Positions 1 to 15,014 are shown, counted from the stretch's first letter. The stretch: 64,000 nucleotides of DNA from Nitrosopumilus sp. (GCA_965204345.1 OZ241981.1:256001-320000), one strand, 5' to 3'. The notes: generated by a model from the letters alone, not told the origin. Made by a program: numbers and translations.

Positions 1-109
1 CCGCTGGCAGCAGTGATTACGTGATGCTTGTCCCTGAACAGAATAAGATGCAACGTATCAAGAAAGGAGCGGTCATCATCGACTATCAGTATCCTCTTGC
101 GTAGAGCCA

Positions 110-1375
110 TTACATATCATGGGGGGGAAGGTATATTGTAAAGGTTACCGGATCGTTTGATGCCTTGATGGTGCCCCCATGCAGACGCACTATGTTGGCA
201 CAGCCGGTAAGGCCCAGCCCCGTCCCCTCCATCTTGGTGGTGTATAGGGGCTCAAACACCCTGTCTGTATCCCCCTTTATTGGAGGTCCAGAATTCTCAA
301 AGGAGATCATGGCATGATCTGTGTCCTTGTGCAGCCACACGGTAATGGTACCTGGTGCATCACCGATAGCCTGTGTGGCATTGAGCAACAGGTTTGCAAA
401 TACAAACCCCATCTTCTCTGCATCGCAGTTTATGACAAGGTCATCGCTGGGAAGGCACAGTTGGATGTTTTCTGGTATGAATACTGTATCAAGGCACTCC
501 CGCATCACACCCATCACGGTGGCAGGCCTGAGAACCAGCGGTACAGAGCGCGCATGTGCCATCACACCGTCAACCTGGTGCGACATGCGCCACACGGAGC
601 GCTTTATCCTTTCTGTCTCCTGCAAGACAGTCTTCGGATCTTCGCTCTCCTGTATCAGGGCAACTGAATTGCGTATGGCGCCAAGCGGGTTTCTCATGTC
701 GTGGGCCACAGCAGCTGCCAGCTCGCCAATGACTGCAAGCTTGCTTGCTTTGAGTATCTCATCTGTATGCCTGGAGAAGATTCTCCATATGAGCATTATC
801 ATGAGTACGTGTATTGTGACATTTACAACACCCATGGCAATTTGCAGATGTATCAACCGCGTAGAGGATTTCTCGATATCTGCTGCAAGATCCCCAGTCA
901 GTACATCAGAGAGATCTACCAGTCTGGTGCCTGCAACCACTACTGTCCCAAGATGGCCGTCTCCCTCCTCCAGTGTTAGGGACACGGCATTCCTATATGC
1001 AACAAACGCATCAGAGACGTTTTCCCATTTGCCTGCAAACTCTGCAGACAACGGAGGTATTTTGACACCGTTTGCGGGTCCCCCGTCCTTCAAAAGCACG
1101 ATGTTATTTTCCAAATCTACGAGTGCGGCATGGATGTCCCCGTGTTTCTGTACGCCGCGGTACAAGACGTTGTTTAGCTCTATCTGGACTGCGCCTGCAA
1201 GAAACCTGTTCTTTCCTGCTATGTTTACGGTGTTTCCTGCAAGGTTTGTCTGTGATTCGTAGTGTATGATTACCAGAAAGCTTGCCAGTATAAGGAGAAC
1301 CTCTGCTGATACTATGAGGGCTATCTTGTGGGAGGGCTTCATGCAATATGGTGGATACGTATCAGATAAATCCAT
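110..1375 (-). CDS. Membrane sensor histidine kinase with NarX/PilJ-like extracellular domain
   Basis: Two TM segments, VNIAGKNRFL (NarX P-box-like), H-box AHDMRNPL, N-box NLLLNATQA, G boxes FENSGP and GTGLGL. Confidence 0.9.
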   Translation of the reverse strand: MDLSDTYPPYCMKPSHKIALIVSAEVLLILASFLVIIHYESQTNLAGNTVNIAGKNRFLAGAVQIELNNVLYRGVQKHGDIHAALVDLENNIVLLKDGGPANGVKIPPLSAEFAGKWENVSDAFVAYRNAVSLTLEEGDGHLGTVVVAGTRLVDLSDVLTGDLAADIEKSSTRLIHLQIAMGVVNVTIHVLMIMLIWRIFSRHTDEILKASKLAVIGELAAAVAHDMRNPLGAIRNSVALIQESEDPKTVLQETERIKRSVWRMSHQVDGVMAHARSVPLVLRPATVMGVMRECLDTVFIPENIQLCLPSDDLVINCDAEKMGFVFANLLLNATQAIGDAPGTITVWLHKDTDHAMISFENSGPPIKGDTDRVFEPLYTTKMEGTGLGLTGCANIVRLHGGTIKASNDPVTFTIYLPPHDM

Positions 1376-1489
1376 TACGGTAAAAAAAAGACATACCGCA
1401 AAAAAATTAAAAATTTATATAATGAAAAGGCATACCGCAAACCAATATCAATATTTAAATGATGAAGGCACATAGGGGTTAGTAATAAC

Positions 1490-2542
1490 ATGAAAAACAA
1501 AACAAAAACAATATTGTTTGCATCACTGATTGTAGCGATGATTTTGCCATTTTCAATAATGAATTTTGCAGAGGCAAATCCAACAGATGACCAAAACAGA
1601 ATAAACAAAAAGATTTCAGATATAGAAAACAACAAAAAAGCATATCAAGAACTAGTTGAAAAAGCAACTGAACTCGAAGACCAAATCGGCAGACCTGACC
1701 ATGAGGATACATCTAGGTTACAAGACAAGTTAGATACAATATATGCCAAAATAGATATCTTACAAGAAATCAACTATGAATTGTTTTCAATACCAGCAGA
1801 TAAAAGTACAATTTTACTTGCTACAAAAGAAAATATAAAACAATCATTAGCTGATGATGTACTGCTAGATTCATTTATTGACTATAGAAATGAAGAACTG
1901 GTTTTTGTTCAAAATCCTGATTTTGTAAAATCTCTCTCGGATTCAGAGAAGACAACAGTCAAAGAAAAGCTCGATAAGAAAATCAAGGTAAATTCTAACG
2001 GCCAAAAATACAGAATAGAATCAGTAGAAGAAAAAAGGCAACAAAACTGTCTAGCTAGATCTAATAACTGTAATCCTCAAATGGGTGGTCTCAAAGTTCA
2101 AGTAAGTACTGGTGATGGATATGGAACTTTGGGATTTGCATCTGATCGATTAGGTGTAGATGGATTTGTTATCACAGCACATCAAACAGGTGGTACAGTT
2201 TACCAATATACTGCTACAGCAGGAACTGTAACTGATGTTCAATATGGTTTATGTGATTGTGCCTTTGTAGAGAATACCAGTAGTGATTCAACCCAAAACA
2301 AAATTTGGACTACTAGTTATGGAAGATTTTCAATAACAAGTGAAGCAAGTAATGCTGATCATGAAATTGGCACATTACTAAGAAAATCCGGTGCTGCCTC
2401 TGGCGTAACATCAGGTTCTATCTATTCTAACACGGGAAATTTTGTCTACGCTGATATCTACAGTATTCCAGGTGACAGCGGCTCTCCTGTATATGCAGGT
2501 TCAGGCTCTAGTGGCAAGCTATATGGCTTGTTGTGGGGTTGA
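1490..2542 (+). CDS. Secreted chymotrypsin-like (S1, alpha-lytic-type) serine protease, C-terminus possibly truncated
   Basis: Signal peptide, coiled-coil pro-region, triad motifs FVITAH, DCAFV, GDSGSP; ends abruptly at GLLWG-TGA. Confidence 0.8.
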   Translation: MKNKTKTILFASLIVAMILPFSIMNFAEANPTDDQNRINKKISDIENNKKAYQELVEKATELEDQIGRPDHEDTSRLQDKLDTIYAKIDILQEINYELFSIPADKSTILLATKENIKQSLADDVLLDSFIDYRNEELVFVQNPDFVKSLSDSEKTTVKEKLDKKIKVNSNGQKYRIESVEEKRQQNCLARSNNCNPQMGGLKVQVSTGDGYGTLGFASDRLGVDGFVITAHQTGGTVYQYTATAGTVTDVQYGLCDCAFVENTSSDSTQNKIWTTSYGRFSITSEASNADHEIGTLLRKSGAASGVTSGSIYSNTGNFVYADIYSIPGDSGSPVYAGSGSSGKLYGLLWG

Positions 2543-2620
2543 CCATTTTCAGAACCCACTGATACCATCTATACAAAATATCATATAATCGATTACATCT
2601 GAATTTAGATTAGAATAGAC

Positions 2621-3187
2621 ATGCAAAAACTGCTACTTTTTTTCCTTTTTTTATTATTTGGAGTCAATTATGTAAATGCAGAATTTGATTCATTAAAACA
2701 GCAACTAGAAAACAACATACCGCTTGATGAAATTGAATGTAAAAATAAAATGCATATTCTAACTGAAAGACCTAATGGAAAATTAGCTTGTGTATTTGAA
2801 AATACTGCTGAAAAATTAAATTGGAATAAAATTAACCCTATCACGACTGATATTTTTGAGCTAAAATTTAACGATAATGCATACGATATAGAATATGTCA
2901 TAGAGGGTGGTGTAGTTAAAAACATGATGATAAATCCTGAAAATGAACTTTTTACCATATATGTAGACTCATTTCAAGAGGGTAATCTCAAAATGCAATT
3001 ATCTTATGAATTTCTTGATGAATTAAAATCTACTCGTGATCAAATCTTTCTTCTTAGATCCAATGGAGAATCAACTTCATGGACCGCGCTGCCCGGAAAA
3101 GATCCAAACAAAATAGAATTTATGATTTATTTTAAACAAGGAAATACAGTAATCGAATTTCAAAAAGACGAGATAATACTAAAGTGA
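2621..3187 (+). CDS. Secreted hypothetical protein with thaumarchaeal 'SPLKQ...C...CV' small domain
   Basis: Signal peptide; DSLKQQLENNIPLDEIEC...RPNGKLACV resembles the SPYEQ...C...CV domain of the paralogs at 28-41 kb. Confidence 0.7.
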   Translation: MQKLLLFFLFLLFGVNYVNAEFDSLKQQLENNIPLDEIECKNKMHILTERPNGKLACVFENTAEKLNWNKINPITTDIFELKFNDNAYDIEYVIEGGVVKNMMINPENELFTIYVDSFQEGNLKMQLSYEFLDELKSTRDQIFLLRSNGESTSWTALPGKDPNKIEFMIYFKQGNTVIEFQKDEIILK

Positions 3188-3278
3188 CCATAGTTGTTTT
3201 TATTTTAGCAATTCAATTTCTGCATTTTCAATCTTAGAGGCTTTCCAAGACACTGTTAAGAATACGTGACATGGAGTT

Positions 3279-3298
3279 TACACTGTTCAATCTTAGGG
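3279..3298 (+). repeat. Orphan copy of the IS6-like terminal repeat TACACTGTTCAATCTTAGGG
   Basis: Identical to the first 20 nt of the TIR at 16155; no partner end with a TSD found. Confidence 0.7.
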
Positions 3299-3780
3299 AT
3301 CTCAAATGAAAGATTCTGAAATATTCCGAGTTTGGATCGGTGTGTAAACTAGGAAAGAATCGAAGTGACTGAATTTAGGCGTAAAATCAATGGTTTTAAA
3401 AAATAGAATAAAATAAAAAAAACATACAATCAAATGGCTTTTTTGTCTACTTCTTTCTCTGCAACAGCATAACTTACGCCACCTAATATTATGATGGTTG
3501 CCGTTACGATGCTTAACAATTGTATGTTATTCATGTTATTACCAGCCCCTATGTGCCTTCGTTATTTAAGCAGCTATATTGAGTTACGGCATGCTTCTTT
3601 TTCAGCCAATTTATGATACGAGTCAAATTTTTTTATTGTCAATAAACATTATTTCTGCTGTTTCAAGCCCTTCAAGAAATTGCTGATGTTGGCAATCAGT
3701 AACATAAGTGCAAAGAATGTAATGATGAATTTGTCTATAGCAAGAGGACATTGTCTAAGCAGGCCAAAAAAATATTGAAG

Positions 3781-3907
3781 ATGAATTAGATAATTTAAGA
3801 AAATCATCTCTGGGAATTTACCGTTAAATTCCAGTAATTAGTTCATCAGAATTTGCCAAACCTGGATTGAACGATCCTATGAAATGTCCCGAGTTTGAAA
3901 CCGTGTA
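3781..3907 (+). repeat. Relic transposon right end / subterminal repeat
   Basis: Aligns with 49380-49497 (TAAGAAAATCATCTC...AAATTCC...CATCA.AATTT...AAATGTCC.GAGTTT); ends in GTGTA like the intact ends. Confidence 0.65.
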
Positions 3908-4683
3908 GTAAAAATCCTGGTAAATCATGCAAGCCCAAAAACATAATGAAAAAAATAAAAAAGAGCTAGTGGATATCATCCATGTCCAATCAACACAAAG
4001 GACATTAACATCATTAGTGCTATGTTTTTTGTTTAGAGTTTTAGCATCAGCGACATTAGAACGAAACAGGCAAGACACATGATGACTTGCATCCGAACGA
4101 ACAACCTCTGCATCATAATCGGCATGATAAGAGTATTCACAGATTAAAGCTGATGTACCTTGTATCATCCAAAATGCCCTTAACCAATCATAAGAACCAT
4201 CAACAACTATGGTGCCATATTCCCTTTGAGATTCTGAAACATACGTATGACCTTCAGTAGCAGAATAACATTCAAAGAGCCAATAACAAGGATGAGTATA
4301 TCCAGGTTGAAATTTAATTTGTTTTGTTCCCCTGATAACTGAATAGGACTTAGTTAGTACAGGGCATTGGTAAGAGAATTCTGTCTTGCTTTTTCTGCTT
4401 CTTTTGCATAGTGAGAACGAAGTATCCAGTATTCTGGATTTTCATCAGCCTGTTGCTGAGTAGGTATGCCAAGTTCATTCATCTGAAATACAAGATCGTG
4501 AAATTTTTTCTCTAATTCCATTCTCTTTTCGGGATTTGTTTCTGCTTCTTTTTGGTCATAAACCCTTTTGGCCTCATTGCCAATTCTTTCTATTTTTTCA
4601 TCTCTTGATAGCTCATCTGCGTATACTGTTATGATGGGTATTGCCAGCAGGATGGCTAGTGCTAATAGCAGCTTGCATGTCAT
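3824..4683 (-). pseudogene. Frameshifted secreted hypothetical protein (ORFs 4354-4683 and 3824-4168)
   Basis: The signal-peptide ORF stops at 4354; the frame of the 3824-4168 ORF stays open upstream (SVIRGTKQIKFQPGYTHPCYW...) to ~4350. Confidence 0.5.
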
Positions 4684-5041
4684 CGCACTCTTAGAATTTG
4701 AGGGTATTTAGGTTGAGCTAACTCCTTGCAATCATGCTTCATATTTGTAGAATGAGAATATTCCAATAACAGAGTCTTGCATAACCCAAAACCGGCAAAT
4801 ATATGGTGAAGAAGACGATGATCATGCGCAGAGACCAGATACACATATCTGCCATATTCTGTTATCGCCTGATCATCTGAGAACATCTTTGGTCATCATT
4901 GTTTCAGATTCTTCTACCTTTCGCTTAATTTCTTTGAGTTTGTCTGCATCTGTCATGTTAGTTGACTCGTCATTCCCGTCTTGGTTGGCATAAGATCGGA
5001 TACTGTCGTTGTGGACCGCGGAATTTTACCAGTTCTACGCA

Positions 5042-5287
5042 TCATCTATTACCGTTTGGTATGATTTGAAAGATATGTCCATGTTCGGTGATGAACCTGC
5101 TTTTGCCCATATAGAAAAAACATCTCCCATACCTTCTAGTTTGTATCTGTGCTTTTAGCTGTGGATTGTTTTGATTCCATAAAAATAATTCATGACCACG
5201 CACTGACTGATGCTGTATTAGTGGTTTTGTTTGTGAGTTGTTTTGAGTGTTTTCACCTGCACTAATTTGTTGGACCAAATGGTTCAA
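5042..5287 (-). CDS. Small hypothetical protein, paralog of the N-terminus of 51825-52271
   Basis: TTG start after AGGAGG SD; MNHLVQQISAGENTQ vs MNRLAQQQKQISEDTQ. Confidence 0.45.
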   Translation of the reverse strand: MNHLVQQISAGENTQNNSQTKPLIQHQSVRGHELFLWNQNNPQLKAQIQTRRYGRCFFYMGKSRFITEHGHIFQIIPNGNR

Positions 5288-5525
5288 CCTCCTATAACTG
5301 GCGTAACGTCGCCAGTGGTACGATTCCTATATGAGAATCACTTTGGGAATCTTCCTTTGGAAAATTCTTAGGTGTGGTTCCCAGGAATATTTTTTTGAAA
5401 ACCAATCATGATTTTCTTTAGTCATCACACACCCATCCGCTGAGTCGGCTGATACTATGGTTGCAGGATCAGGTATAATGGGTTTGGATGATTTGACTCA
5501 GTCAAATAAAAAATGTGCCGTATGA

Positions 5526-5921
5526 TTACGACTTTTCTTCGATTCTCTTGAGAGCATCTGTGATGTTGTTACTGAGCTTCTCTTGGGATGATGTCATATT
5601 CTTTAGTGATGTTGCAATATCTTTTTGGGATGTTGCAATATCCTCTAGAATCTCGTCTTGCTTGTCTAATCGCTTGTACAGTGTCTTTGCCACATTTTTA
5701 GTCGTTATCATCATATACACTGCTATACAGCTGGCAATAATAAGTGATATCCCCGATGCAATGGAGATCTCACGCCACAGATGCATAAGATCAAATACGA
5801 CTCCTGTGAATACAATTGAAAACCCGCATACCATGAGCATAAATAAAATCATGTTCTTGCATACGAATTTGCGTATCCTGCTGGGTAGTGACAGCACAAA
5901 CTTTAGCCTATAGCCGCACAT
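5526..5921 (-). CDS. Two-TM plus coiled-coil hypothetical protein (family with 52264-52791)
   Basis: Two hydrophobic helices followed by heptad-like EDIATSQKDIATSLKNM, similar to EIATTLKNIA at 52 kb. Confidence 0.6.
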   Translation of the reverse strand: MCGYRLKFVLSLPSRIRKFVCKNMILFMLMVCGFSIVFTGVVFDLMHLWREISIASGISLIIASCIAVYMMITTKNVAKTLYKRLDKQDEILEDIATSQKDIATSLKNMTSSQEKLSNNITDALKRIEEKS

Positions 5922-6114
5922 TCTCTAGTTTCCCAAGCGTTCTCAGTGTTTCATCACGCATGATATAGTCAACTGAGGTTCCTACACCGAGGGTCTTGCT
6001 ATGAACTTTCATGGCATAGGAATACCGTGTGGCCTTTTTTGCAATGTGTCTGACTAGTGCCTCAAAATATGGCTGGCCCTCAAGATTTCTGATTGCAAAT
6101 TCCTCGGCAGTCAT
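5908..6114 (-). CDS. Small hypothetical protein
   Basis: Overlaps both neighbouring ORFs, operon-like. Confidence 0.5.
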   Translation of the reverse strand: MTAEEFAIRNLEGQPYFEALVRHIAKKATRYSYAMKVHSKTLGVGTSVDYIMRDETLRTLGKLENVRL

Positions 6115-6527
6115 GATGCATGTCCTGCCTTTTGTGCGCTCATTGGAGCCACAGGTGATCTTGCAAGTCGGGTCTTCTCACAGCACTTCTTCTTTTGTTT
6201 TTGTACTGTCTGCATTGTTGCATATCCCTTTTTGCTGCGATTCTGCGCAGCTCTTTTCTGTCCCAGTTCTTCTGCAGGGACTTGTTTTCTGTTTGCAACC
6301 TTTGCCGTTCTCTGTGACAAAGATGGCATTGCAGAGTCGACCCAAGGGTCGACTAGCTGCTGTGCCTTTTTTGGTGCCATAAAATTGGCATACATTTTTG
6401 ATTCCTTTTGGAACTCTGTATTGTCTGCTGTATCGGCTGGTTCAAGATTGTATTTTTTGAGAATGTCTGATTTCTCATCCTCTCCAATACCTTTACCATT
6501 TTGTGATATTGCTGCCATGAATACCAA
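6111..6527 (-). CDS. Basic hypothetical protein
   Basis: ORF with ATGA overlap into the next gene. Confidence 0.45.
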   Translation of the reverse strand: MVFMAAISQNGKGIGEDEKSDILKKYNLEPADTADNTEFQKESKMYANFMAPKKAQQLVDPWVDSAMPSLSQRTAKVANRKQVPAEELGQKRAAQNRSKKGYATMQTVQKQKKKCCEKTRLARSPVAPMSAQKAGHAS

Positions 6528-6823
6528 GCTGTTGTTCCTTGGGTTTTCCCCTCAGGTATCTGCATTAGATCATCATCGTCCCCTACTGGAACGAGAATTA
6601 TGCCTGGAACATCATGATTCCTGGAATGTCTGCTGCAAGCAATGGTGGGATCACGTATGCGTATGTCAGTGATCCTACTATGACAAAAATCATCGTCAGT
6701 GCCGCAGTCATTGCCGCCCTTTTGACAAATTGTTTTTTTGACATGGACTCGTACGAGTTTCGGAAAATCATTCCTCATCAGCATGCCTTCTGGTTGGGTT
6801 ATATTGGTAAAATCATGTCAAAG

Positions 6824-6897
6824 TGGTGAGGGCTCAGATTGTGGCTGTCATCATATTGATGTTCAGATCAACGCCGGTCTCATCATCGCCCTCACTA
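6824..6897 (-). ncRNA. Archaeal C/D-box sRNA, copy 1
   Basis: Minus strand: terminal stem GTGAGGGC/GCCCTCAC; box C ATGATGA, guide GACCGGCGTTGAT, D' CTGA, C' ATGATGA, guide CAGCCACAAT, D CTGA. Confidence 0.85.
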
Positions 6898-7015
6898 TCC
6901 TGTATCAGCCTGTCTTGGCTGTCTTGAAAAATTGTGTATAGTCTGAGTTTCAGGAATTAATCCCGCATTCTTAGATGGCATCTAGTTGAGTTATATTGAT
7001 AAAATAATGTCAAAG

Positions 7016-7089
7016 TGGTGAGGGCTCAGACTGACTCTTGTCATCATACTGATGTCACTATGAATGGTGTCTCATCATCGCCCTCACCA
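7016..7089 (-). ncRNA. Archaeal C/D-box sRNA, copy 2
   Basis: Same terminal stem; box C ATGATGA, guide GACACCATTCATA, D' GTGA, C' ATGATGA, guide CAAGAGTCAGT, D CTGA; 192-bp period relative to copy 1. Confidence 0.85.
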
Positions 7090-7352
7090 TCCTATCTTAT
7101 AATTCCGAATCTTTCAGAAACGTGTATAGTCTTGGATTTTGGAAAAGGCTGTTACAAAAAATGGTTTTAGGTTTTGTAGATTTGGTTTAGGGTTTTGTTT
7201 TTCAGTTTTGATGATTTGGTTTTTGGAAATTGCACAATTTTGGTGTCGTGTGATTACGCGATATCTGGCAGGTTTTGATTATCTGATAACTGGAATTTGA
7301 CAATTTATTGCCAGGATGCACTATTGGCAGTTTTTAGGATGGGTTGCCAGTC

Positions 7353-7594
7353 ATTTCATTGTTAAGGCGGCTTGTATGTCATCCCAACCACTTGAGCATA
7401 CCTCAGTAGGATTTCTTTGCTGTGTGCATAGTAGCGGTTCTACAAGTGAATGAGGATCCTGATTCGGATCGTCTCCGCATATCCGTGGACCCGGATCATA
7501 ATGAGTATAACATGTGGGTATCAAAAGTATGCCAACTATAGTAAAGATTATGGTTGCACTACCAATTAAAGAGAGTGTATGTGAACTTCATCAT
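7353..7594 (-). pseudogene. Frameshifted small membrane-anchored Cys-containing protein, paralog of 53459-53687
   Basis: IFTIVGILLIPTC...EVCSSGWDDIQAAL vs VFTIVGILFTPTC...EVCSSAWYDIQAAL; both copies frameshifted. Confidence 0.55.
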
Positions 7595-8123
7595 CGCAAC
7601 CTAAGAAAGACTTGTAATAAAGTTGGTCTTTACTGCAAAAAACCGGGTGATCCTCCAAAATAATAAGAGGTTGACCTTCAGATGATGACTCAAAACACAA
7701 GCGCCACTACGACAAACTCTTACAATTTTAGAGCTGCCATCCATATGATGTATAATTACGCTACTGCTATTGTATTGAGCACTGCCAATTTGTACGACCG
7801 TCATTATCGAATGCATGAAAACCACAAGTATCTTCTTGTATACCGTATTTGTATCAGGAGAAATCACAATGTTTTACCACTGTCCTAGAAAAGAATTTCT
7901 TGTTGCTTATTTGTTCATCATATTGCGGTAAATCATCTACACTTGCAAAACCATCAATTTGCCGAGTTCCACTTTGTGTTGCATGTGCTCTGATGAATGG
8001 CATTATTGAATCATGTTCATGAGGGATGTTGCCATTTTCAAAATCATATGCCATGTTTGGATAAAGTATCTGTCCTTTTGCAGGTTGCAAATATGCATCA
8101 TATGAGCACCATGCAAAAGGATA

Positions 8124-8480
8124 ATGCCGCCTCTTCTTTTTTTATTTTTAAATGGAACGAATGTAATAATAAAATATGAAAAAAAAGTCCTCTTGTCTTT
8201 GAGTATAATTTTGGTGATGGGCTTAATCCCTCAAGGATTCTCTCATGCAGACCCTGAATCAATGACATTGATTACCAATGGTACAATTCAGCAAGTCAAA
8301 GTAGTTGGATTAGGTCCTACTGAAGAGTCAGACAAAGAAGAGGTGATTTCAATATTTGGATTACATCCTGTAATTTTCACATTATCTGCAGGAATTGCAG
8401 CAATCATGGGAATCTTTACATGCATCAGTTATAGAGAAGACATTACTGCATTAAAAAACATCAGACGTGAAAAATCATAA
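8124..8480 (+). CDS. Secreted/membrane hypothetical protein; true start probably frameshifted in an A-run near 8176
   Basis: Signal-like KKVLLSLSIILVMGLIPQGFSHA and C-terminal TM; ATG at 8176 is out of frame across A8. Confidence 0.45.
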   Translation: MPPLLFLFLNGTNVIIKYEKKVLLSLSIILVMGLIPQGFSHADPESMTLITNGTIQQVKVVGLGPTEESDKEEVISIFGLHPVIFTLSAGIAAIMGIFTCISYREDITALKNIRREKS

Positions 8481-8521
8481 AAATAATTCTGTTCCTAATT
8501 TTATCCATAGGCCTAATTCCT

Positions 8522-8884
8522 ATGGCACATGCAGAGTATTTTGATTGGAAATTCTGCAGTGATACCGTAAAATTCCCATATGCAATAACAAATGGAACAC
8601 TAAAAGAAACAATACATCTCAAGCTGGCAGATACTATTCTGTGTGCCGGGCAATATTCGACTGATTATCAACTGCAGTTAATCCACACATCAAACAACCA
8701 AACTGGTTTTCAAATAGGATTGCCTGAGGAACTAGATTTTGAGAAGATCAAGGTACGAATAATTGACAGATATAATGTTGAGACCTTTTGGCTAAATCAG
8801 ACGGCTGATTTTGTATCATTAGATAATTACACTCATGATAAATTTGGGTTCATTGCAGTTATCTTGGATTTTGCAGGAATATGA
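8522..8884 (+). CDS. Hypothetical protein (signal peptide appears to lie upstream in frame without a start codon)
   Basis: Upstream IIKIILFLILSIGLIP precedes MAHAEY. Confidence 0.4.
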   Translation: MAHAEYFDWKFCSDTVKFPYAITNGTLKETIHLKLADTILCAGQYSTDYQLQLIHTSNNQTGFQIGLPEELDFEKIKVRIIDRYNVETFWLNQTADFVSLDNYTHDKFGFIAVILDFAGI

Positions 8885-9394
8885 TCTGAAATACTTTATA
8901 AAGAAATTAAAAATAATAAAAGAAGCAAGTAAACCAATTATGAGATTTGCACAAAATAGTAATTGATCACTAAGATGCACGGCATCTGACGGTATTCTGG
9001 CAAATTTTGATAATTTAGAATGCCGTAAATCACAGATTGTATAGTCTCAAAACTGCACCGTGAGATTTTTTGACGGCTAGGTAACTTTTTTTAAGAAAAA
9101 TTATCTCTTGCAACTTGCCGTCAAATTGCAGTGATCAGCTTAGCAAAATTTGCCAAATCCATCCAGAGACCAGAAACAAGAATACAACACTGTCATTTGG
9201 CCAAACTTGCAAAATATCATAAACCCGTATCAACTGATTCCTTTTGAATCCTTAAAATGCCAAACCAGGAAAGAATTAAGGAGACGGAATTTAGGCATAA
9301 TGTTACTGATTTTAACAAGCAAAATAAAGAAAAAACACGCAACTAAACGCACATTAAAAGAATTCTTAATTACTCTCTAGTTTTTTCTATAATT

Positions 9395-9970
9395 ATGATA
9401 TATTCAAAAAAACCCCTCATAGGAATAATCATGGGATCTAGTTCGGATAGTAGAATTATGCATGGTGCATCTGAAATTCTAGATGAATACAAAATTAGAC
9501 ATGAGGATCAAATAGTATCTGCGCACAGAACTCCTGCCAGATTGGCAGAATATGCAAAACATGCTGAAAAAATGGGATTCAAGATTATTATTGCCGGTGC
9601 CGGTGGTGCCGCACATTTGCCTGGAATGATTGCATCTCATACCACCATACCTGTTATCGGAGTACCTATCCTGGTGTATAATGACAAACATCCAAAAAAA
9701 TCAGATGCCACAAAGTTTTCTGCATTTGGAGGCCTAGATTCGCTCTTATCTATTACTGAAATGCCTTCAGGCTCTCCCGTAGTGTCTGTTGGGGTAAACA
9801 AGGCAGGAAATGCAGGGATTTATGCCATGAAGATACTTGCAAATGAGTTTCCGGATTTAAAAAAGAAATTAAAACAATACAAGTCAACACAGCACAATTC
9901 AGTAATGGAAGAGTCAGATCATCTAAAAAAGGTCGGCCTTTCAAAGTTTGTGAAAAAGAAATTCAAATAA
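9395..9970 (+). CDS. purE: N5-carboxyaminoimidazole ribonucleotide mutase
   Basis: IIMGSSSD, SAHRTP, AGAGGAAHLPGM, VIGVP, GLDSLLSI motifs. Confidence 0.97.
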   Translation: MIYSKKPLIGIIMGSSSDSRIMHGASEILDEYKIRHEDQIVSAHRTPARLAEYAKHAEKMGFKIIIAGAGGAAHLPGMIASHTTIPVIGVPILVYNDKHPKKSDATKFSAFGGLDSLLSITEMPSGSPVVSVGVNKAGNAGIYAMKILANEFPDLKKKLKQYKSTQHNSVMEESDHLKKVGLSKFVKKKFK

Positions 9971-9971
9971 T

Positions 9972-11180
9972 TCATGTCAGCAAAGTAAATTGGATATTTT
10001 TTTCTTTTAATGACCTTATGAGCGTCTCTGCCTGTTCCTTGCCCTGAGTTTCCAGGCTCAATGTGACTCCTGCTGAACCTGCATCGATTTCTGAGCTTAG
10101 TCTGTCATGAACCACTTCAACAATATTTGCATTGGCAAGCGTTATCTCATCTACAATCTCCTTAAAAGCTCCCGGCCTGTCAGGAAGCAAAATTGATATC
10201 TTTAACAATCTGCCCATTGCTGCAAGACCCTTGTCAACTATCTGGCCTAGCAGATACATGTCCACATTTCCTCCTGCCAAAACTACTGCTATCTTTTTTC
10301 CCATGGCGGGTTTTTTTGATATGAGATAAGCCAGACTGGCAGATCCCGCGGGCTCTACCACAAACTTCATTCTCTCCATTAGCAGAAACATTGCCTTTGT
10401 AATCTCTACATCATCCACAAGAACAATCTCGTCTATCAATTCCTTTATTATGTTGTACGTTAACTGTCCCGGTGTTTTTACAGAGATACCATCAGCTATG
10501 GTCCTATTGCCTCCACTTGTAGTAATTGATCCCTTTTTAACTGAATCATACATTGCTGGAAATGATCTTGACTGAACACCTATGACTCTTATTTGGGGGT
10601 TTTTTTCTTTAATGGCAATTAGTGTTCCGGCAGCTAGTCCGCCACCCCCTATGGGAAGATAAATTTCATCGACATCTGGCAGGTCTTCTAATATTTCAAG
10701 TCCAATCACTCCCTGAGCTGCAATTATCTGGGGATCATCAAAGGCATGTATCAGGACAGCTCCCGTATCTGCGGATATCTCTTTGGCCTTGGCTGATGAT
10801 TCGTCATAGTTTACTCCCTCCAAGATAACCTTGGCACCGTATCCCCTAGTGGATGCAACTTTTGCAGGTGACGCATTTTTTGGCATTACAATAGTGCAGG
10901 GTATTTTTTCTAGTGATGATGCAAAGGCCACTCCCTGTGCGTGATTCCCGGCTGATGCTGCAACAACTCCCTGTTTTTTTTCTGCATCAGATAGGGATTT
11001 GATCTTAAAATATGCGCCACGAATTTTAAATGAACCTGTCTTCTGCCTAAACTCTGTCTTTAGATAAATATCTGATCCTGTCAACCTGCTAAACGTGGGA
11101 GAACGTATCAGAGGAGTCTTTTTAATTTCGTTTCCCCTTGACGCATTTGCTTTTAGTATTTCCCCATATGTTGGCTTCAT
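9972..11180 (-). CDS. ilvA: Threonine ammonia-lyase with C-terminal ACT domain
   Basis: QKTGSFKIRGA (PLP Lys), ASAGNHAQG, PIGGGGL, EPAG, GGNVD, LPDRPG. Confidence 0.93.
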   Translation of the reverse strand: MKPTYGEILKANASRGNEIKKTPLIRSPTFSRLTGSDIYLKTEFRQKTGSFKIRGAYFKIKSLSDAEKKQGVVAASAGNHAQGVAFASSLEKIPCTIVMPKNASPAKVASTRGYGAKVILEGVNYDESSAKAKEISADTGAVLIHAFDDPQIIAAQGVIGLEILEDLPDVDEIYLPIGGGGLAAGTLIAIKEKNPQIRVIGVQSRSFPAMYDSVKKGSITTSGGNRTIADGISVKTPGQLTYNIIKELIDEIVLVDDVEITKAMFLLMERMKFVVEPAGSASLAYLISKKPAMGKKIAVVLAGGNVDMYLLGQIVDKGLAAMGRLLKISILLPDRPGAFKEIVDEITLANANIVEVVHDRLSSEIDAGSAGVTLSLETQGKEQAETLIRSLKEKNIQFTLLT

Positions 11181-11359
11181 TGGAGATGTTGCTAATAATT
11201 TGGCGTATTTGACTTCTTCTATACAAAAACTACATTTTTGGTCAAATTTTGTGCTTGATTGGCAGGAATGCCTAAATAGTTCAAAAATCCCGTTGAAATT
11301 ATATCAAGGGATCCGGAAACTCCCCTTTGAGAAGTTCTCTCATCTTCCGGTTCCTTGGT

Positions 11360-12202
11360 TTATTGCTTAACAATGATATCCTCAATCTCATCCAAACGCT
11401 TTAGAATATCCTCTTTTACTGATGCAGACATCTTTCTTGGATCAAACATGCCTTCTCTATTTCCGTCTTTGATAAATTCTAAATCTAAAGTCAGCAGACA
11501 CCCTTCCTCTCCTGCTACCAATCGCGGATCGTCAATTAATACGGGGGATGTTTGGTATGTCTCAACCAAAAGAGAATCCAACTCTGAAAGTAATTTTGTC
11601 TTTTTTTCAGACAGTTTGCTAAAATCCACCCCCATGTCTTTTTCAATCTCTGCAAATACCTTTTCTCTAAATTCATCGTTTTCATAAAATATTTCAAATA
11701 GTTTTTGATGATCAAAATCTCTGTATCCCATCTCTTTTAGTTTGTTTAATACCCGCTGATCACTGCTATCGGATATCTGTTCCTGCTCGTTTTTTGTCAG
11801 ATCTATAATTTCAGATAATTCCTTCTGGCAGTCAATCACCCGCTGAACTGGCTTATAGTATAACAAAACATGAAATTGTAAAGACAGGTGTCCTGACATC
11901 AGATAGTTTCCTTCTTTTGTCTCAAATTTGGTAAAAACCCTTCGAATGTCTTCGTTATTTGTAGCTGAAACGTCTTGGACAGACCAGTTTTTTAGTGAAC
12001 CGCTGATTTTTTCAAAATATTCTACAACAGACTTTGGATCAAATGTTTTTTGCACCGTAATTGTGGAATCTCCCAGCATTACCTTGATTTCAACCATTTT
12101 TGTCAAATCGATCATTTTGCAAAGATATGCCTTTTGAATGGATTCATTTTTTTCATTTAATACCTGAATGAATTCGTTTGGAGATCTAGAGCCTAATCGC
12201 AC
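11360..12202 (-). CDS. Conserved-looking hypothetical protein
   Basis: Intact 280-aa ORF in the core-like block. Confidence 0.8.
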   Translation of the reverse strand: MRLGSRSPNEFIQVLNEKNESIQKAYLCKMIDLTKMVEIKVMLGDSTITVQKTFDPKSVVEYFEKISGSLKNWSVQDVSATNNEDIRRVFTKFETKEGNYLMSGHLSLQFHVLLYYKPVQRVIDCQKELSEIIDLTKNEQEQISDSSDQRVLNKLKEMGYRDFDHQKLFEIFYENDEFREKVFAEIEKDMGVDFSKLSEKKTKLLSELDSLLVETYQTSPVLIDDPRLVAGEEGCLLTLDLEFIKDGNREGMFDPRKMSASVKEDILKRLDEIEDIIVKQ

Positions 12203-12267
12203 AAGACATAGCAGATAATCGCTCTCCTTAAACCTTCATCAATATCTAAATAGAGAAAATCTAAAAA

Positions 12268-12431: not shown

Positions 12432-13376
12432 TTAAAGACTTTTCAGCTTTCTAAGCAAATCCAAATCTGGTGATTTTTCTTGTGCATCATTGATTATTTT
12501 GTATATTTTTTCAAAACGGATTTTTGATTCGGGTTTTTTTACTGGTATATTGTTATGTTTGCAGAACTCATACATTTCTTCAAATACTTTGTTTCTTTTA
12601 AACAATATAACATCAATGCCTTTTTTCTTGAATTGGTTGACCATCATACCTGTAAGATCATCAACTAAAAATAATTGAATGTCTCGTGCAAGTCCTTCAT
12701 CTGCTACTTCTGGATTGCCTATTCCCAATAATTTTAATTCTATTTTATAGAGTCTTTTATCACGATCAATCAATATTCCATCTGTTTCTCTTACGGAGTC
12801 TATTTTTTTCTGGATATCCTTAGTTATTAGTATGAAATTATCCTCTGGTATTTCTAAATGTTTGAATAACGTAAGTAAAATTGAATTTTCTGTTTTCTTT
12901 CCAACCTCACTCCAAGCTCCACCCCTAATGGATGATTTCATTGATGAGACTGCATTTATGAAAATCATGCTTTCAGTTTCGTCTAATCGTATTGATTCGT
13001 TTTTGCATCTTATGTCAATTGAAATTAAATATTTTGTCTCTATTGTTTGTAAAAGTGTTTCAAATGCATTAACATTGTCTTTTCCAACTTCGAAGCAAAT
13101 TCGCTTTGATGTTGAACCACTCATGTTAAGTATTGTCTTTTGATTCAGTCCAGCTAGCCATGCTATTTTTTTCTTATCTTCTGATTTCTCATAATGAGCA
13201 TTTATGATTTGTACCCAGTTTTTGCCCTGTTTTTTATATTCGAAAATATTCTCTATCAATTCATCTACCTGTTTTACGAATCTTTCATTTATTATGGCAA
13301 GAATGTATTTTCTATGGTCTTGAGCTGTAAAAACAGAATGAATTATTTTACTTAGCAGATTGGTGCTATATGTCAT
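12432..13376 (-). CDS. Type II restriction endonuclease, CfrBI-like
   Basis: IRGGAWSEVGKKTE, RETDG, IELKLLGIGNPEVAD motifs resemble the CfrBI family; next to an N4C MTase. Confidence 0.75.
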   Translation of the reverse strand: MTYSTNLLSKIIHSVFTAQDHRKYILAIINERFVKQVDELIENIFEYKKQGKNWVQIINAHYEKSEDKKKIAWLAGLNQKTILNMSGSTSKRICFEVGKDNVNAFETLLQTIETKYLISIDIRCKNESIRLDETESMIFINAVSSMKSSIRGGAWSEVGKKTENSILLTLFKHLEIPEDNFILITKDIQKKIDSVRETDGILIDRDKRLYKIELKLLGIGNPEVADEGLARDIQLFLVDDLTGMMVNQFKKKGIDVILFKRNKVFEEMYEFCKHNNIPVKKPESKIRFEKIYKIINDAQEKSPDLDLLRKLKSL

Positions 13377-13450
13377 TTTTTATTTGTTCGATTGCATCCA
13401 ATATTCGACTTTGATTATCTTTCAGTCTTTTCTTTGTTGGAATCTTATTG

Positions 13451-14755
13451 TTAATGGATGAACCTGGGTTTTTTTTTGACATGATCCAGAAAATCAAACA
13501 TATATGATGTGACACTGTCATGTATGTTTTTCAAAGAATATGCACAATTGCTATCTTTTTGCAAGATCACTATTTGCTCATCATTGATATTTCCAATCTT
13601 GGAATTTGTGTATTTGGTTGTAGGATCTATATTTCTGAAAAATGTTTTTTTGTGTACAAATCCCCCTACATTAGCATATTTTTCAAATAATTTGTACGGT
13701 TCTATTTTTTCAAACTCTATGGTAGATGTGCCTAAAATAACAGCACAGTAACGATTTTTATCAAGAGCATGATTCATTTTAAATAAAAATTTGAGCATAT
13801 CGCCTAGATACTCACTTAATAATCTAAATCTATTATGGACAAATTTTGAATGACTACCTATTTCATGTTTCCTCAGGTCTTTAAAGTTGTATTCCAAGAA
13901 GTGCATGTTGTACATATGGGTTCTGTGATAATCCAATGCGTTAACATATGGAGGTGAAGTTATCACCAAATCCACACTTCCTTTTTTGAGATATAATTCG
14001 TTGATGTCTTTGTTAAACAATGTTACAGAAGGCCTGTTGTCAATACTATAATTCATGTTAAGAATTTCTTCGTGGATAAATGCTATTTTTTTCTTAAAAA
14101 CTTCCAATATGTTGACTGATTTTTTTGAATTAAACATATACCATAATGTAGAACTGAGTGTCAATCTACACAAATTGGATATTTTAGAATCATTTTGACA
14201 ATTAATGAAATTTTTTATTAATAGAATATGTTTGATATTTTGATTAGAAAGTAAACTGGTGATCTTTCTTTTTGGCAAAATACTAATTTCCTCATTTATC
14301 ATTTTCTTTGTAATTTTAATCTCAAAATCGTCAAATCTTTGCAAGGCTCTTGAAAACTTGATTGGTGATATTGAAGTTGTTTTCATTTTTGATATCAATA
14401 TTGACAGAGGATTCAAATCAGAGCCAATAGAATCACGATTATTCATAAAGGATTCTAGAATTGTAGTACCGCTACCGCAAAATGGGTCTAGCACAATATC
14501 ATTTTTTTTACTTAGATTTTTAATAAGACTACTGGCTATTTGTGGGATGAATCTGGCAGGGTATGGATGTATCTTATGCGTAAGATAAGTCTTTGAATTT
14601 GTAAAATTCCAGTCGATTTTATTCATATCAAAAAATGGTTTTTCAGAAATTAAATCATCCTGTCTTTGTATTGATATATTTTTTTGTACCAAGTTTGGTT
14701 TTGTCTTATTGTCTCTACATTTAACGTTTAATTTGGTCAAATTGATCTCACTCAT
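13451..14755 (-). CDS. DNA cytosine-N4 methyltransferase (C-terminus shifted at an A9 run)
   Basis: HPYPARF, VLDPFCGSGT, VITSPPY. Confidence 0.9.
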   Translation of the reverse strand: MSEINLTKLNVKCRDNKTKPNLVQKNISIQRQDDLISEKPFFDMNKIDWNFTNSKTYLTHKIHPYPARFIPQIASSLIKNLSKKNDIVLDPFCGSGTTILESFMNNRDSIGSDLNPLSILISKMKTTSISPIKFSRALQRFDDFEIKITKKMINEEISILPKRKITSLLSNQNIKHILLIKNFINCQNDSKISNLCRLTLSSTLWYMFNSKKSVNILEVFKKKIAFIHEEILNMNYSIDNRPSVTLFNKDINELYLKKGSVDLVITSPPYVNALDYHRTHMYNMHFLEYNFKDLRKHEIGSHSKFVHNRFRLLSEYLGDMLKFLFKMNHALDKNRYCAVILGTSTIEFEKIEPYKLFEKYANVGGFVHKKTFFRNIDPTTKYTNSKIGNINDEQIVILQKDSNCAYSLKNIHDSVTSYMFDFLDHVKKKPRFIH

Positions 14756-14922
14756 CTCAATGGTTTGACATGGATCACCATTTCACCATCTTTTACGGTG
14801 ATCTCCCAATCCAGTTTATCCTTTTCCTTCAGTTTAAAGTGAGTGGTAATACTTTGTGGAATCGTGGTTCTCAAACTAATGGATGTTGTAGTGGCTTTAT
14901 TGATCGACGTTATATCCCCCAT
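14752..14922 (-). CDS. AbrB/SpoVT-like small regulator (56 aa, not in ORF track)
   Basis: MGDITSINKATTTSISLRTTIPQSITTHFKLKEKDKLDWEI...; ATGA overlap with the MTase start. Confidence 0.8.
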   Translation of the reverse strand: MGDITSINKATTTSISLRTTIPQSITTHFKLKEKDKLDWEITVKDGEMVIHVKPLR

Positions 14923-15014
14923 AGGTAACTAGATAAGACATTGCCATTTATAGTTACCTACCAATAAGTTACCTATAGTGTTACCTTTATTAATAGGTAA
15001 AGATATAGGTAACT
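14923..15014. promoter_or_regulatory. Divergent promoter with about 6 GTTACCT/AGGTAAC boxes
   Basis: Repeated 7-mer on both strands between the AbrB gene and the transposase. Confidence 0.65.

What the first reader, a model, noticed from the sequence alone, without database searches (positions are those of the whole stretch)
6790..7135. Tandem-duplicated C/D-box sRNA scaffold with the guides replaced, in an accessory island
Seen: two 192-bp-period units on the minus strand share the terminal stem, C/D'/C'/D boxes and flanks including an upstream ACTATACAC, but both guide slots differ. From memory of archaeal rRNA: copy 1 D' guide CCGGCGTTGA equals the Arch958R primer core (16S); copy 2 guides fit 23S AUGAAUGGUGU (about E. 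coli 1970) and CUGACUCU (helix 69), two nearby sites as typical for double-guide sRNAs. Inference: guide reprogramming by cassette duplication, with rRNA modification guides located in mobile DNA.
Basis: partly seen in the sequence, partly recalled or inferred. Interest (0 to 1): 0.72.

Follow-up and report, generated by a model that had tools for sequence, protein, structure and literature searches.

The report
Paired archaeal C/D-box guide RNA genes
Two neighbouring small-RNA genes of a sponge-associated ammonia-oxidising archaeon look like guides for methylating ribosomal RNA, and they belong to a rare, patchily spread family that forms long tandem arrays beside mobile-element genes in a few related genomes.

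Summary
On the minus strand, 192 bases apart, lie two about 70-nt units (window 6826-6895 and 7017-7088). Each has a canonical C box, D' box, C' box, D box and a closing stem. Scaffold and flanks are shared; both guide slots differ.

They are the only two full matches to a strict C/D pattern in the 2.12 Mb genome. The genome encodes fibrillarin, Nop5 and L7Ae.

A covariance model finds strong relatives of this scaffold in only 6 of 150 family genomes, G000 included. There they stand in arrays of up to 13 units. The stem shows compensatory changes, and guides recur in D or D' slots. Several relatives' guides pair 10-11 bp with 16S/23S hot spots.

In this genome three of four guides hit those same regions with only 8 Watson-Crick pairs, or an 11-bp run with two G-U. 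Singly this is not above shuffles, but the hits cluster in 23S 2003-2071. The fourth guide is an orphan.

A decayed paralogous pair lies 1.7 Mb away. The surrounding 9 kb is species-specific. It holds fragments of a gene module that, in relatives, sits beside actin-like partition, TraG-like and nuclease genes.

Expression could not be tested. Verdict: real C/D sRNA genes. Duplication with guide replacement is a known process; the array-forming, island-borne family is new.

The parts
7017..7088 (-). C/D-box sRNA unit 'copy 2': stem, C box AUGAUGA (7078-7072), D' guide GACACCAUUCAUA (7071-7059), D' box GUGA, C' box UGAUGA, D guide CAAGAGUCAGU (7040-7030), D box CUGA (7029-7026), stem
   Evidence: (66.2 bits with model R1)
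6826..6895 (-). C/D-box sRNA unit 'copy 1': stem, C box (6886-6880), D' guide GACCGGCGUUGAU (6879-6867), D' box CUGA, C' box, D guide CAGCCACAAU (6847-6838), D box CUGA (6837-6834), stem
   Evidence: 67.4 bits; best Rfam sub-threshold match sR49, 33.6 bits against a gathering score of 50
7122..7130 (-). ACTATACAC, TATA-like element 33 nt upstream of the copy 2 stem (promoter role inferred)
   Evidence: the motif is mutated in both decayed paralogues
6934..6942 (-). ACTATACAC, TATA-like element 38 nt upstream of the copy 1 stem (promoter role inferred)
6990..7008 (-). T-rich stretch (AUUAUUUUAU) and conserved CAATATAAC downstream of copy 2: possible terminator, then a TATA-like box for what follows (inferred)
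   Evidence: CAATATAAC is kept in all four units of the genome
6798..6816 (-). The same downstream block after copy 1
6652..7263 (-). 612-bp block (upstream spacer, both units, start of a small ORF) that is duplicated at G000:C1:1964359-1964973 with 79% identity
6598..6771 (-). Small ORF (57 aa) just downstream of copy 1: fragment homologous (50% over 40 aa) to the N-terminus of a nuclease-like (SNase) protein that accompanies the units in relatives
5908..6527 (-). Two ORFs (138 and 68 aa), 44% identical to the C-terminal third of a 353-aa protein and to a 70-aa protein that follow the unit in genome G107: remnant of the same gene module
1..9350 (.). Stretch with essentially no DNA counterpart in 40 sampled genomes of the genus (a few short repeat-like pieces and one sRNA unit in G107); the family-less ORFs lie at 1490-8884 behind a histidine-kinase gene at 110-1375; it ends at the conserved purE block, which starts at about 9355

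Best explanation
These are two intact archaeal box C/D small RNA genes. Each RNA of about 70 nt is closed by an 8-10 bp stem. It forms a kink-turn from the C and D boxes and a kink-loop from C' and D'. The host's L7Ae, Nop5 and fibrillarin would bind it. Each of the two guide slots then pairs with a target RNA, and the ribose of the nucleotide opposite the fifth guide base upstream of D or D' is methylated. Predicted sites in this genome's numbering: 23S A2071 (CAUGA*AUGG, copy 2 D' guide); 23S A2021 (CUGA*CUCU, copy 2 D guide); and for the copy 1 D' guide either 23S A2003 or 16S A908. The copy 1 D guide is an orphan. The pair belongs to a family with one conserved scaffold (GAGGGC, C box ... 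D box, GCCCUC). The family multiplies by tandem duplication and swaps or mutates guide modules. It travels with a small set of genes typical of integrated mobile elements. In this genome that element has decayed and the two RNA genes are what stayed intact. Shown: anatomy, family, stem covariation, guide conservation across genomes, presence of the protein machinery, species-specific context. Inferred: transcription, promoter and terminator, RNP assembly, and the methylation itself.
For: Anatomy: all four boxes, spacers of 13/11 and 13/10 nt, and closing stems. These are the only 2 strict matches in the genome.

Rfam: 49 of 53 sub-threshold rows (E up to 10) are CD-box snoRNA families, on the minus strand, over the two units.

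Machinery: fibrillarin at 295 bits and Nop at 225 bits, adjacent at C1:874689-876249; L7Ae family at 96 bits.

Family: model R1 gives matches above 40 bits in G000 (4), G080 (9 listed above 40 bits, 13 at E<=0.01), G016, G097, G041 and G014, of 150 family genomes. Weak generic hits of 27-35 bits occur in 126 of 150.

Stem: 3 of 6 pairs show changes on both sides (GC to AU, AU to UA, CG to GC). 97.1% of cells are paired, and 0 of 500 shuffles reach the covariation score.

Guides are better kept than flanks. The copy 2 D' guide is identical (13 of 13) to a G080 unit. The copy 1 D' guide is 12 of 13 identical to the single G107 unit, and the DNA match to G107 covers only the 66-nt unit.

Relatives' guides pair with their own rRNA over 10-11 bp: GUUCCAUUCAU to 23S 2076, the same adenosine as copy 2's predicted A2071; CAGCCUGUUAU to 23S 2554; AUCUGGCGUUG to 16S 909; AGAGAGUCAG to 23S 2023; GUGAAACGACG to 16S 1364. 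Shuffle p values are 0.01-0.115.

In G000, 3 of 4 best hits lie within 23S 2003-2071. Only 12 of 2000 shuffled guide sets cluster as tightly. Helices 68-71 are reported methylation hot spots (passages of PMC4644070; PMC7994747).

The decayed paralogues at C1:1964474-1964840 have lost the D box (CUUA), one C box and the ACTATACAC motif together. The intact state of the window copies is therefore not the default.

Contigs from three other studies carry the units: 1 difference in 549 nt (X5) and 0 in 252 nt (X6). Elsewhere in the island the X5 contigs differ by 12 in 1045 nt.
Against: No RNA data: no listed run is on record as RNA.

Each G000 guide match on its own is no better than shuffled guides: p 0.41, 0.34, 0.07 and 0.77. 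Eight base pairs is only the minimum threshold used in the literature (PMC6009581).

The clustering test used a span chosen after seeing the data.

Spacers of 13 and 10-11 nt depart from the 12/12 spacing that is usual in archaea (recalled). Copy 2's D' box is GUGA.

The copy 1 D' guide has two competing targets. Eleven-base matches elsewhere in the genome occur at the rate expected by chance, so other targets cannot be excluded.

No Rfam family reaches its gathering score.

The element around the genes is degraded, so the RNAs could be relics.
Confidence: 0.7

Rival explanations
1. Relics: genuine C/D sRNA genes that arrived with a mobile element whose guides were tuned elsewhere. In this host they are transcribed little or not at all and no longer direct methylation. 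The 8-bp matches are leftovers of ancestral 10-11 bp guides.
For: The guides match the same rRNA sites as relatives' guides but over fewer pairs. One guide is an orphan. The element is degraded: the actin-like and TraG-like genes are absent, and neighbouring ORFs are fragments. A second pair in the same genome has visibly decayed.
Against: All eight boxes, both stems and both upstream motifs are intact here, while the paralogues lost them. The units are near-identical in contigs of three studies. The copy 2 D' guide, with its 8-bp match, is conserved letter for letter in G080, where a perfect 11-bp version also exists. That argues the short form is kept and is not drifting.
Confidence: 0.17
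2. Functional C/D RNPs whose real targets are not rRNA: tRNA, mRNA or element-encoded transcripts. Alternatively they act as chaperones or L7Ae-binding RNAs without methylation.
For: rRNA matches are short. The constant GAC at the 5' end of D' guides and the conserved full 13-nt guide hint at constraints beyond the 8 paired bases.
Against: The best tRNA matches score 7.5 or less among 40 tRNAs. Genome-wide there is no match beyond 11 nt apart from the genes themselves, which is about the chance rate. Relatives' guides clearly point to rRNA.
Confidence: 0.08
3. A TIGR-like array: tandem dual-guide RNAs that serve a dedicated Nop-domain effector of a mobile element and target DNA.
For: There are tandem units with two variable guide slots, up to 13 units beside mobile-element genes in G080. 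TIGR arrays share ancestry with box C/D RNAs according to PMC12045711 (passages).
Against: The units are about 70 nt with kink-turn boxes in 145-192 bp periods, not 36-nt units of 8-12 nt repeats with 9-nt spacers. No Pfam family at all, Nop included, for 6 of the 8 adjacent ORFs at E up to 10 and none that is Nop for the other two. The 353-aa neighbour folds as a beta-rich domain with no match at E up to 0.001 and no Nop-domain protein among the rows shown (mean pLDDT 59). The guides match rRNA.
Confidence: 0.03
4. DNA-level repeats: centromere-like or operator sites for the neighbouring actin-like partition system. They would not be RNA genes.
For: In G080 and G107 the units lie directly upstream of, and divergent from, an actin-like (ALP_N / partition-like) gene. 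That is where partition sites usually sit.
Against: The box spacing is exact. Variation is confined to the guide slots. The stem shows compensatory changes. Guides are complementary to rRNA. G000 keeps the units without any actin-like gene. Separate palindromes between gene and unit are better centromere candidates.
Confidence: 0.02

Closest known systems
Archaeal box C/D sRNAs (for example Rfam sR49 RF01303 and snoPyro_CD RF00095)
   Same: Size of about 55-70 nt, C/D'/C'/D box order, two guide slots, a closing stem, dependence on L7Ae, Nop5 and fibrillarin, and rRNA domain IV as a target region.
   Different: No Rfam family reaches its gathering score (best 33.6 bits against 50). The host is a mesophilic Nitrosopumilus-like archaeon. 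My two searches found no paper on C/D sRNAs there: 0 papers for 'Nitrosopumilus' with 'box sRNAs', and 4 off-topic papers for 'Thaumarchaeota' with 'box sRNA'. Spacers are 13/10-11 nt and the closing stem is long.
Duplicated C/D sRNA genes with replaced, shifted or permuted guides in Pyrobaculum and Methanopyrus (Lui et al. 2018, PMC6009581; Dennis et al. 2015, PMC4644070; passages read)
   Same: Whole-gene duplication, guide replacement, the same guide moving between D and D' slots, one-nucleotide target shifts through indels at the guide's 3' end, orphan guides, and pseudogene copies some distance away.
   Different: Here the copies are tandem, with conserved flanks of their own, and reach 11-13 units in a relative. 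The word 'tandem' does not occur in either paper. A review reports archaeal clusters of only two or three genes (PMC7994747). Here the family is shared between genomes of 35 to 64% G+C and is linked to mobile-element genes.
MITE-like C/D sRNA element of Pyrobaculum calidifontis (Lui et al. 2018)
   Same: A multi-copy sRNA-like unit sitting in regions that do not align with related genomes. Some copies have degenerate boxes and orphan guides.
   Different: That element is dispersed in about 15 copies. This one has two loci of two tandem units and no sign of transposition on its own. It moves, if at all, as cargo of a larger element.
TIGR arrays of TIGR-Tas systems (Faure et al. 2025, PMC12045711; passages read)
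   Same: Tandem arrays of dual-guide RNAs, often on viruses and other mobile elements. That paper proposes an evolutionary relation to box C/D RNAs.
   Different: There is no adjacent Nop-domain protein. The units are much longer, have kink-turn boxes, and carry guides complementary to rRNA.
Polycistronic snoRNA gene clusters of plants and other eukaryotes (as summarised in PMC7994747)
   Same: Many C/D guide genes lie head to tail.
   Different: Those clusters hold different snoRNAs. Here one scaffold is reused with its flanks. Whether the units here are co-transcribed is unknown.

Membership tests
Archaeal box C/D sRNA | C box RUGAUGA near the 5' end and D box CUGA near the 3' end | tested here: met
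   AUGAUGA and CUGA in both units
Archaeal box C/D sRNA | Internal D' and C' boxes in the order C, D', C', D | tested here: met
   Copy 1 has CUGA and UGAUGA. Copy 2 has GUGA and UGAUGA, with one departure from consensus at the first D' base
Archaeal box C/D sRNA | Terminal helix that closes the C/D kink-turn, supported by covariation | tested here: met
   Stems of 10 and 8 bp. Across 37 distinct family members, 3 of 6 pairs have compensatory changes and 97.1% of cells are paired. That alignment was fitted to the model, which favours pairing.
Archaeal box C/D sRNA | Guide spacers of about 12 nt between C and D' and between C' and D | tested here: met
   13 and 11 nt (copy 2); 13 and 10 nt (copy 1). 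This lies within the 9-14 nt range I scanned but is not the canonical 12/12.
Archaeal box C/D sRNA | Guides complementary to rRNA or tRNA with the fifth position inside the duplex | tested here: inconclusive
   3 of 4 guides reach 8 or more pairs, but singly they are not above shuffles (p 0.07-0.41). The hits cluster in 23S 2003-2071 (12 of 2000 shuffled sets). Homologous guides in relatives reach 10-11 bp.
Archaeal box C/D sRNA | Host encodes L7Ae, Nop5 and fibrillarin | tested here: met
Archaeal box C/D sRNA | Stable transcript of about 50-75 nt and 2'-O-methylation at the predicted site | not testable with these tools
   No RNA run is listed for this DNA.
Any curated Rfam C/D family | Score at or above the family's gathering threshold | tested here: not met
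   0 matches at gathering thresholds in the window. The best sub-threshold match is sR49 at 33.6 bits against 50.
TIGR-Tas | Array of alternating 8-12 nt repeats with spacers of about 9 nt, processed to RNAs of about 36 nt | tested here: not met
   Units of about 70 nt in a 192-bp period (145-160 bp in G080). The definition is taken from PMC12045711.
TIGR-Tas | Adjacent gene for a Nop-domain (Tas) protein | tested here: not met
   No Pfam family at all, Nop included, for 6 of the 8 ORFs adjacent to the units in the window, G107 and G080 at E up to 10 and none that is Nop for the other two. The model of the 353-aa neighbour is beta-rich with no match at E up to 0.001 and no Nop-domain protein among the rows shown. 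The model has low confidence, so this is not exhaustive.
Integrated mobile element of Thaumarchaeota (classes of Krupovic et al. 2019, PMC6563490) | Integrase, defined ends or attachment repeats, and transfer or replication genes within the element | tested here: inconclusive
   The window region is species-specific and holds fragments of a module. In G107 that module sits beside TraG-like ATPase, transposase, actin-like and nuclease genes. No integrase, tRNA gene or repeat ends were found next to the units. The nearest integrase-like ORF is about 22 kb before the window. G000 has no TraG-like homologue.

The most novel reading that the evidence does not exclude
The scaffold family is cargo of integrative mobile elements of Nitrosopumilaceae. 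These elements bring their own arrays of guide RNAs and borrow the host's fibrillarin, Nop5 and L7Ae to add 2'-O-methyl groups at ribosomal functional centres: helices 69 and 71, the 16S region around UCAACGCC, the 23S GAUAACAGGCU region and the 16S 3' end. The benefit to the element could be protection of the ribosome against ribonuclease toxins or drugs, or a bias in translation. The arrays diversify guides by duplication and module exchange. The window would show a domesticated remnant of such an element.
Probability: 0.15. Interest if true: 0.85.

Novelty: new variant of a known kind. Interest (0 to 1): 0.52.

Why it matters
Box C/D guide RNAs are well studied in hyperthermophiles and hardly at all in the abundant mesophilic ammonia oxidisers. 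These two genes, and the family they reveal, give concrete and testable predictions of ribose methylation in a Nitrosopumilus-like ribosome.

The family is also a clean natural example of how new guides arise. One scaffold is copied in tandem, and guides are swapped between slots, shifted by one nucleotide or left as orphans.

A 2021 review states that mobile features of archaeal C/D sRNA genes remain open (PMC7994747). The distribution seen here bears on that question. Strong matches occur in only 6 of 150 family genomes, across 35-64% G+C. The units are repeatedly linked to actin-like partition, nuclease, DNA methylase and TraG-like genes. This suggests that rRNA-modification guides can move horizontally. 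If so, mobile elements could alter the chemical make-up of their host's ribosome.

Tried and rejected
Expression: no RNA holder was listed for window 6600-7300, so expression could not be assessed.

Contigs of four DNA runs were laid on window 1-12000. Joints such as 6789 to 6981 and 7010 to 6845 are best explained by contigs of the paralogous locus and of dispersed repeats. I did not take them as copy-number variants.

Tandem Repeats Finder did not report the pair.

Rfam at gathering thresholds gave nothing in the window.

Other targets: tRNAs score 7.5 or less among 40 tRNAs. Whole-genome complements of the guides reach at most 11 nt, at about chance frequency.

TIGR-Tas reading: rejected.

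Partition-site reading: rejected (see rival explanations).

Virus origin: the strict scaffold pattern gave 0 hits in viral contigs.

Metagenome contigs: the strict pattern gave 0 hits. A looser pattern gave 121 or more stretches. Of the 80 fetched, only 4 match model R1 at E up to 1e-4 and only one exceeds 40 bits, so most are unrelated.

Genome collection: the strict pattern hit 2 Nitrosopumilus MAG records, one of them a tandem array.

A relaxed half-unit scan for other rRNA guides in the genome gave 72 hits, mostly noise, and I did not use it.

PHROGs gave nothing useful for the island ORFs.

Tripp et al. 2017 on clustered archaeal sRNA genes is not held in the library. I know it only through citing passages.

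Full report
OBSERVATION. The minus strand of window 6600-7350 holds two units whose C boxes are exactly 192 bases apart. Each reads: stem, AUGAUGA, 13-nt spacer, D' box, 8-9 nt loop, UGAUGA, 10-11 nt spacer, CUGA, stem. Coordinates are in the parts list. An alignment of the two 193-nt repeats is 83% identical by column. The terminal stems, boxes, the loop, an upstream ACTATACAC and about 50 nt downstream are shared, while the two spacers are unrelated. A strict pattern for such an RNA matches only these two places in the whole 2.12 Mb assembly on either strand. A looser scan adds only three or four further candidates elsewhere. Both units fold with the expected closing helix, z = -4.4 and -2.8.

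THE ORGANISM AND ITS MACHINERY. The window is G000:C1:256001-320000. I did not verify the name itself, but the only named records that carry the same scaffold are two Nitrosopumilus MAGs. DNA runs that hold the stretch are labelled sponge metagenomes. The genome has one 16S and one 23S gene, adjacent Nop5 and fibrillarin genes and L7Ae-family genes. A box C/D RNP can therefore be built.

A FAMILY, NOT A SINGLETON. BLAST within the genome finds a second copy of a 612-bp block (window 6652-7263) at C1:1964359-1964973, 79% identical. It again holds two units. One has lost its C box (AUGUAAGA), both have CUUA in place of the D box, and both have mutated ACTATACAC motifs. These are decayed paralogues. 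They show that intact boxes are not the default state of this sequence.

Among 101 genomes of the family, BLAST found the unit in G080, G016 and G097. In 40 genomes of the genus it found one unit, in G107. G080 carries 11 strict-pattern units in about 1.6 kb (13 by the model), all with the scaffold GAGGGCGAUGAUGA ... CUGAGCCCUC.

A covariance model built from 17 units was run over 150 family genomes. Scores above 40 bits occur only in G000, G080, G016, G097, G041 and G014. Weak generic C/D-like hits of 27-35 bits occur in 126 of 150 (the tally includes the unpublished genomes G077, G092 and G093, which contribute only weak hits). The carriers range from about 35% to 64% G+C in the regions fetched.

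On 37 distinct units the closing helix is 97.1% paired. Three of its six pairs change on both sides: GAGGGC/GCCCUC becomes AUGGGC/GCCCAU in G014 and GAGGGG/CCCCUC in G041. None of 500 shuffles reached the covariation score. This is the signature of an RNA helix. One caveat is that the alignment was fitted to the model.

GUIDES AND TARGETS. I scored every guide against the 16S and 23S of its own genome, or of the nearest genome with rRNA. The fifth position from the box had to be Watson-Crick paired inside a contiguous duplex, and 200 shuffles of each guide served as control.

Relatives carry clear rRNA guides:
- GUUCCAUUCAU(U/C) pairs over 11 bp with 23S CAUGAAUGGAAC (p 0.01-0.025).
- CAGCCUGUUAU pairs over 10 bp with 23S GAUAACAGGCU.
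- AUCUGGCGUUG pairs over 10 bp with 16S UCAACGCCAGA.
- AGAGAGUCAG pairs over 10 bp with 23S CUGACUCUCU.
- GUGAAACGACG pairs over 10 Watson-Crick pairs plus one G-U (score 10.5) with 16S 1364.

The same guide appears in the D' slot in G080 and in the D slot in G014. Guides against one region differ by one-nucleotide register shifts. Both behaviours are described for Pyrobaculum and Methanopyrus (PMC6009581 and PMC4644070, passages).

In G000 the picture is weaker.
- Copy 2 D' guide: pairs 8 bp with 23S 2068-2075 and predicts methylation of A2071, the same adenosine as the 11-bp guide of G080. Its 5' part (GACAC) does not pair.
- Copy 2 D guide: pairs 8 bp with 23S 2018-2025 (A2021).
- Copy 1 D' guide: pairs either with 16S 904-912 (one G-U at 904 and 8 Watson-Crick pairs at 905-912; A908) or with 23S 1999-2009 (11 contiguous pairs, 9 Watson-Crick and 2 G-U; A2003).
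- Copy 1 D guide: has no match above 7.

The shuffle p values are 0.41, 0.34, 0.07 and 0.77, so no single match is significant. Two things raise my confidence. First, three of the four best hits fall within 68 nt of 23S. This happened in 12 of 2000 shuffled guide sets, although the span was chosen after the fact. The region, domain IV helices 68-71, is a reported hot spot. Second, the guides are conserved beyond their flanks. Copy 2's D' guide is identical to that of one G080 unit, and copy 1's D' guide differs at one base from that of G107, where similarity ends at the borders of the 66-nt unit. Neither the tRNAs nor the rest of the genome offers better targets.

CONTEXT. Against 40 other genomes of the genus, only window 9355-12260 (purE and two neighbours) has DNA counterparts. 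The stretch 1-9350 and the restriction-modification and transposase genes at 12432-16148 do not, apart from short repeat-like pieces and the sRNA unit in G107. The ORFs at 1490-8884 have no Pfam family and, except for one with weak PHROG hits (window 5526-5921, best E 5e-4), no PHROG family.

Three of them are recognisable:
- 6598-6771 is a 40-residue match to the N-terminus of an SNase-like protein.
- 6111-6527 matches the C-terminal third of a 353-aa protein (alignment).
- 5908-6114 matches a 70-aa protein.

All three genes follow the unit in G107. There the unit lies divergent from an actin-like gene (Pfam Actin and ALP_N below threshold, PHROG 'partition protein'), next to IS5-type transposase pieces and a TraG-like ATPase.

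In G080 the array is again divergent from an ALP_N protein and is flanked by two DNA methylases and an SNase-like gene. SNase-like homologues also lie within 1.5-14 kb of the units in G014 and G041, and an actin-like homologue lies 11 kb from the G014 array. G000 has neither the actin-like gene near the units nor any TraG-like homologue.

Integrase-like ORFs exist tens of kilobases away in G000, G107 and G080, but I could not define element ends. The paper on integrated elements of Thaumarchaeota does not mention sRNA, snoRNA or actin (0 occurrences each in PMC6563490).

My reading: the units are cargo of an integrative, plasmid-like module, and the window holds a decayed copy in which the two RNA genes stayed intact. 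Contigs from three other studies carry the units almost unchanged. X5 has 1 difference in 549 nt, against 12 in 1045 nt and 16 in 1404 nt elsewhere in the island. X6 has 0 in 252 nt.

ALTERNATIVES. Tandem dual-guide arrays on mobile elements recall TIGR-Tas (PMC12045711). The units here are twice as long and carry kink-turn boxes. There is no Nop-domain gene beside them by Pfam at E up to 10. The 353-aa neighbour folds as a beta-rich domain plus helices with no solved relative at E up to 0.001 (mean pLDDT 59, so this is a weak negative). A partition-site role for the repeats does not explain box spacing, stem covariation or rRNA complementarity. The relic reading remains the main rival.

COMPARISON AND NOVELTY. 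The kind of RNA is known. So is evolution by duplication with guide replacement, target shift, orphan guides and pseudogenes. [quoted passage not shown]

What I did not find in print, within the searches and the passages read, is threefold:
- any description of C/D sRNAs in Nitrosopumilaceae;
- arrays of more than three scaffold-sharing units in archaea;
- a link between such genes and mobile-element modules.

Supplementary tables of these papers were not opened and might list clusters that I missed. I therefore rate it a new variant of a known kind, of moderate interest. The bolder reading, that elements re-methylate their host's ribosome, is unproven.

Noticed in passing
G000:C1:1964359-1964973 (outside the window): Paralogous 612-bp block with two decayed units. 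The D boxes read CUUA, one C box reads AUGUAAGA, and the upstream ACTATACAC motifs are mutated. The downstream CAATATAAC is kept.
   Followed up: yes
L007:889-962, 1209-1282, 1355-1428 (G080, minus strand): Three array units are identical in scaffold and D guide and differ only in three adjacent bases of the D' guide (CCAAC / CACAC / CCCCC). None matches rRNA well. This looks like localised diversification of one guide.
   Followed up: partly
L022:4600-4900 (G107); window 7246-7262: The palindrome CTATCGTGTAATTACACGATAG occurs two to three times between the actin-like gene and the sRNA unit in G107. It is a candidate partition or operator site. A degenerate copy (ATCGCGTAATCACACGA) lies upstream of the window's units and of the paralogous locus.
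   Followed up: no
window 3520-3910, 1393-1578, 7263-7614, 8995-9350: Dispersed intergenic repeats with ten or more copies each around the chromosome at 75-91% identity. They cause many false joints when contigs are laid on the region.
   Followed up: no
window 12432-16148: CfrBI-type restriction endonuclease (12432-13376) with a DNA methylase (13451-14755), followed by a DDE transposase with a SWIM finger (15015-16148). None has a syntenic counterpart in the sampled congeners: only the transposase has dispersed look-alike copies elsewhere in 9 of them (65-83% identity over up to 1 kb), as insertion sequences do.
   Followed up: partly
G000:C1:779570-779620 (-), 754139-754191 (+), 1086972-1087030 (+): Further candidate C/D sRNAs with other scaffolds. 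The genome seems to hold very few such genes, as expected for a mesophile.
   Followed up: no
L022:5349-6408 (G107) and relatives P0002-P0025: A conserved protein of about 345 aa without a Pfam family, carrying a CxxC...CxC zinc-ribbon-like motif. It always lies next to the unit in the genus-level relatives found. The window keeps only its C-terminal third (6111-6527).
   Followed up: partly
L021:1261-2036 (Nitrosopumilus MAG OZ241857.1): A tandem array in which units of this scaffold alternate with a second, different C/D-like unit (GACAGGCGAUGAUGAGA...). This suggests composite repeats of two sRNA genes.
   Followed up: no
G000:C1:234142-234468 and C1:1882979-1883326: Large integrase-like ORFs (450 and 579 aa) lie about 22 kb before the window and about 81 kb before the paralogous locus. 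Similar ORFs occur in G107 and G080. Whether they bound the islands is unknown.
   Followed up: no
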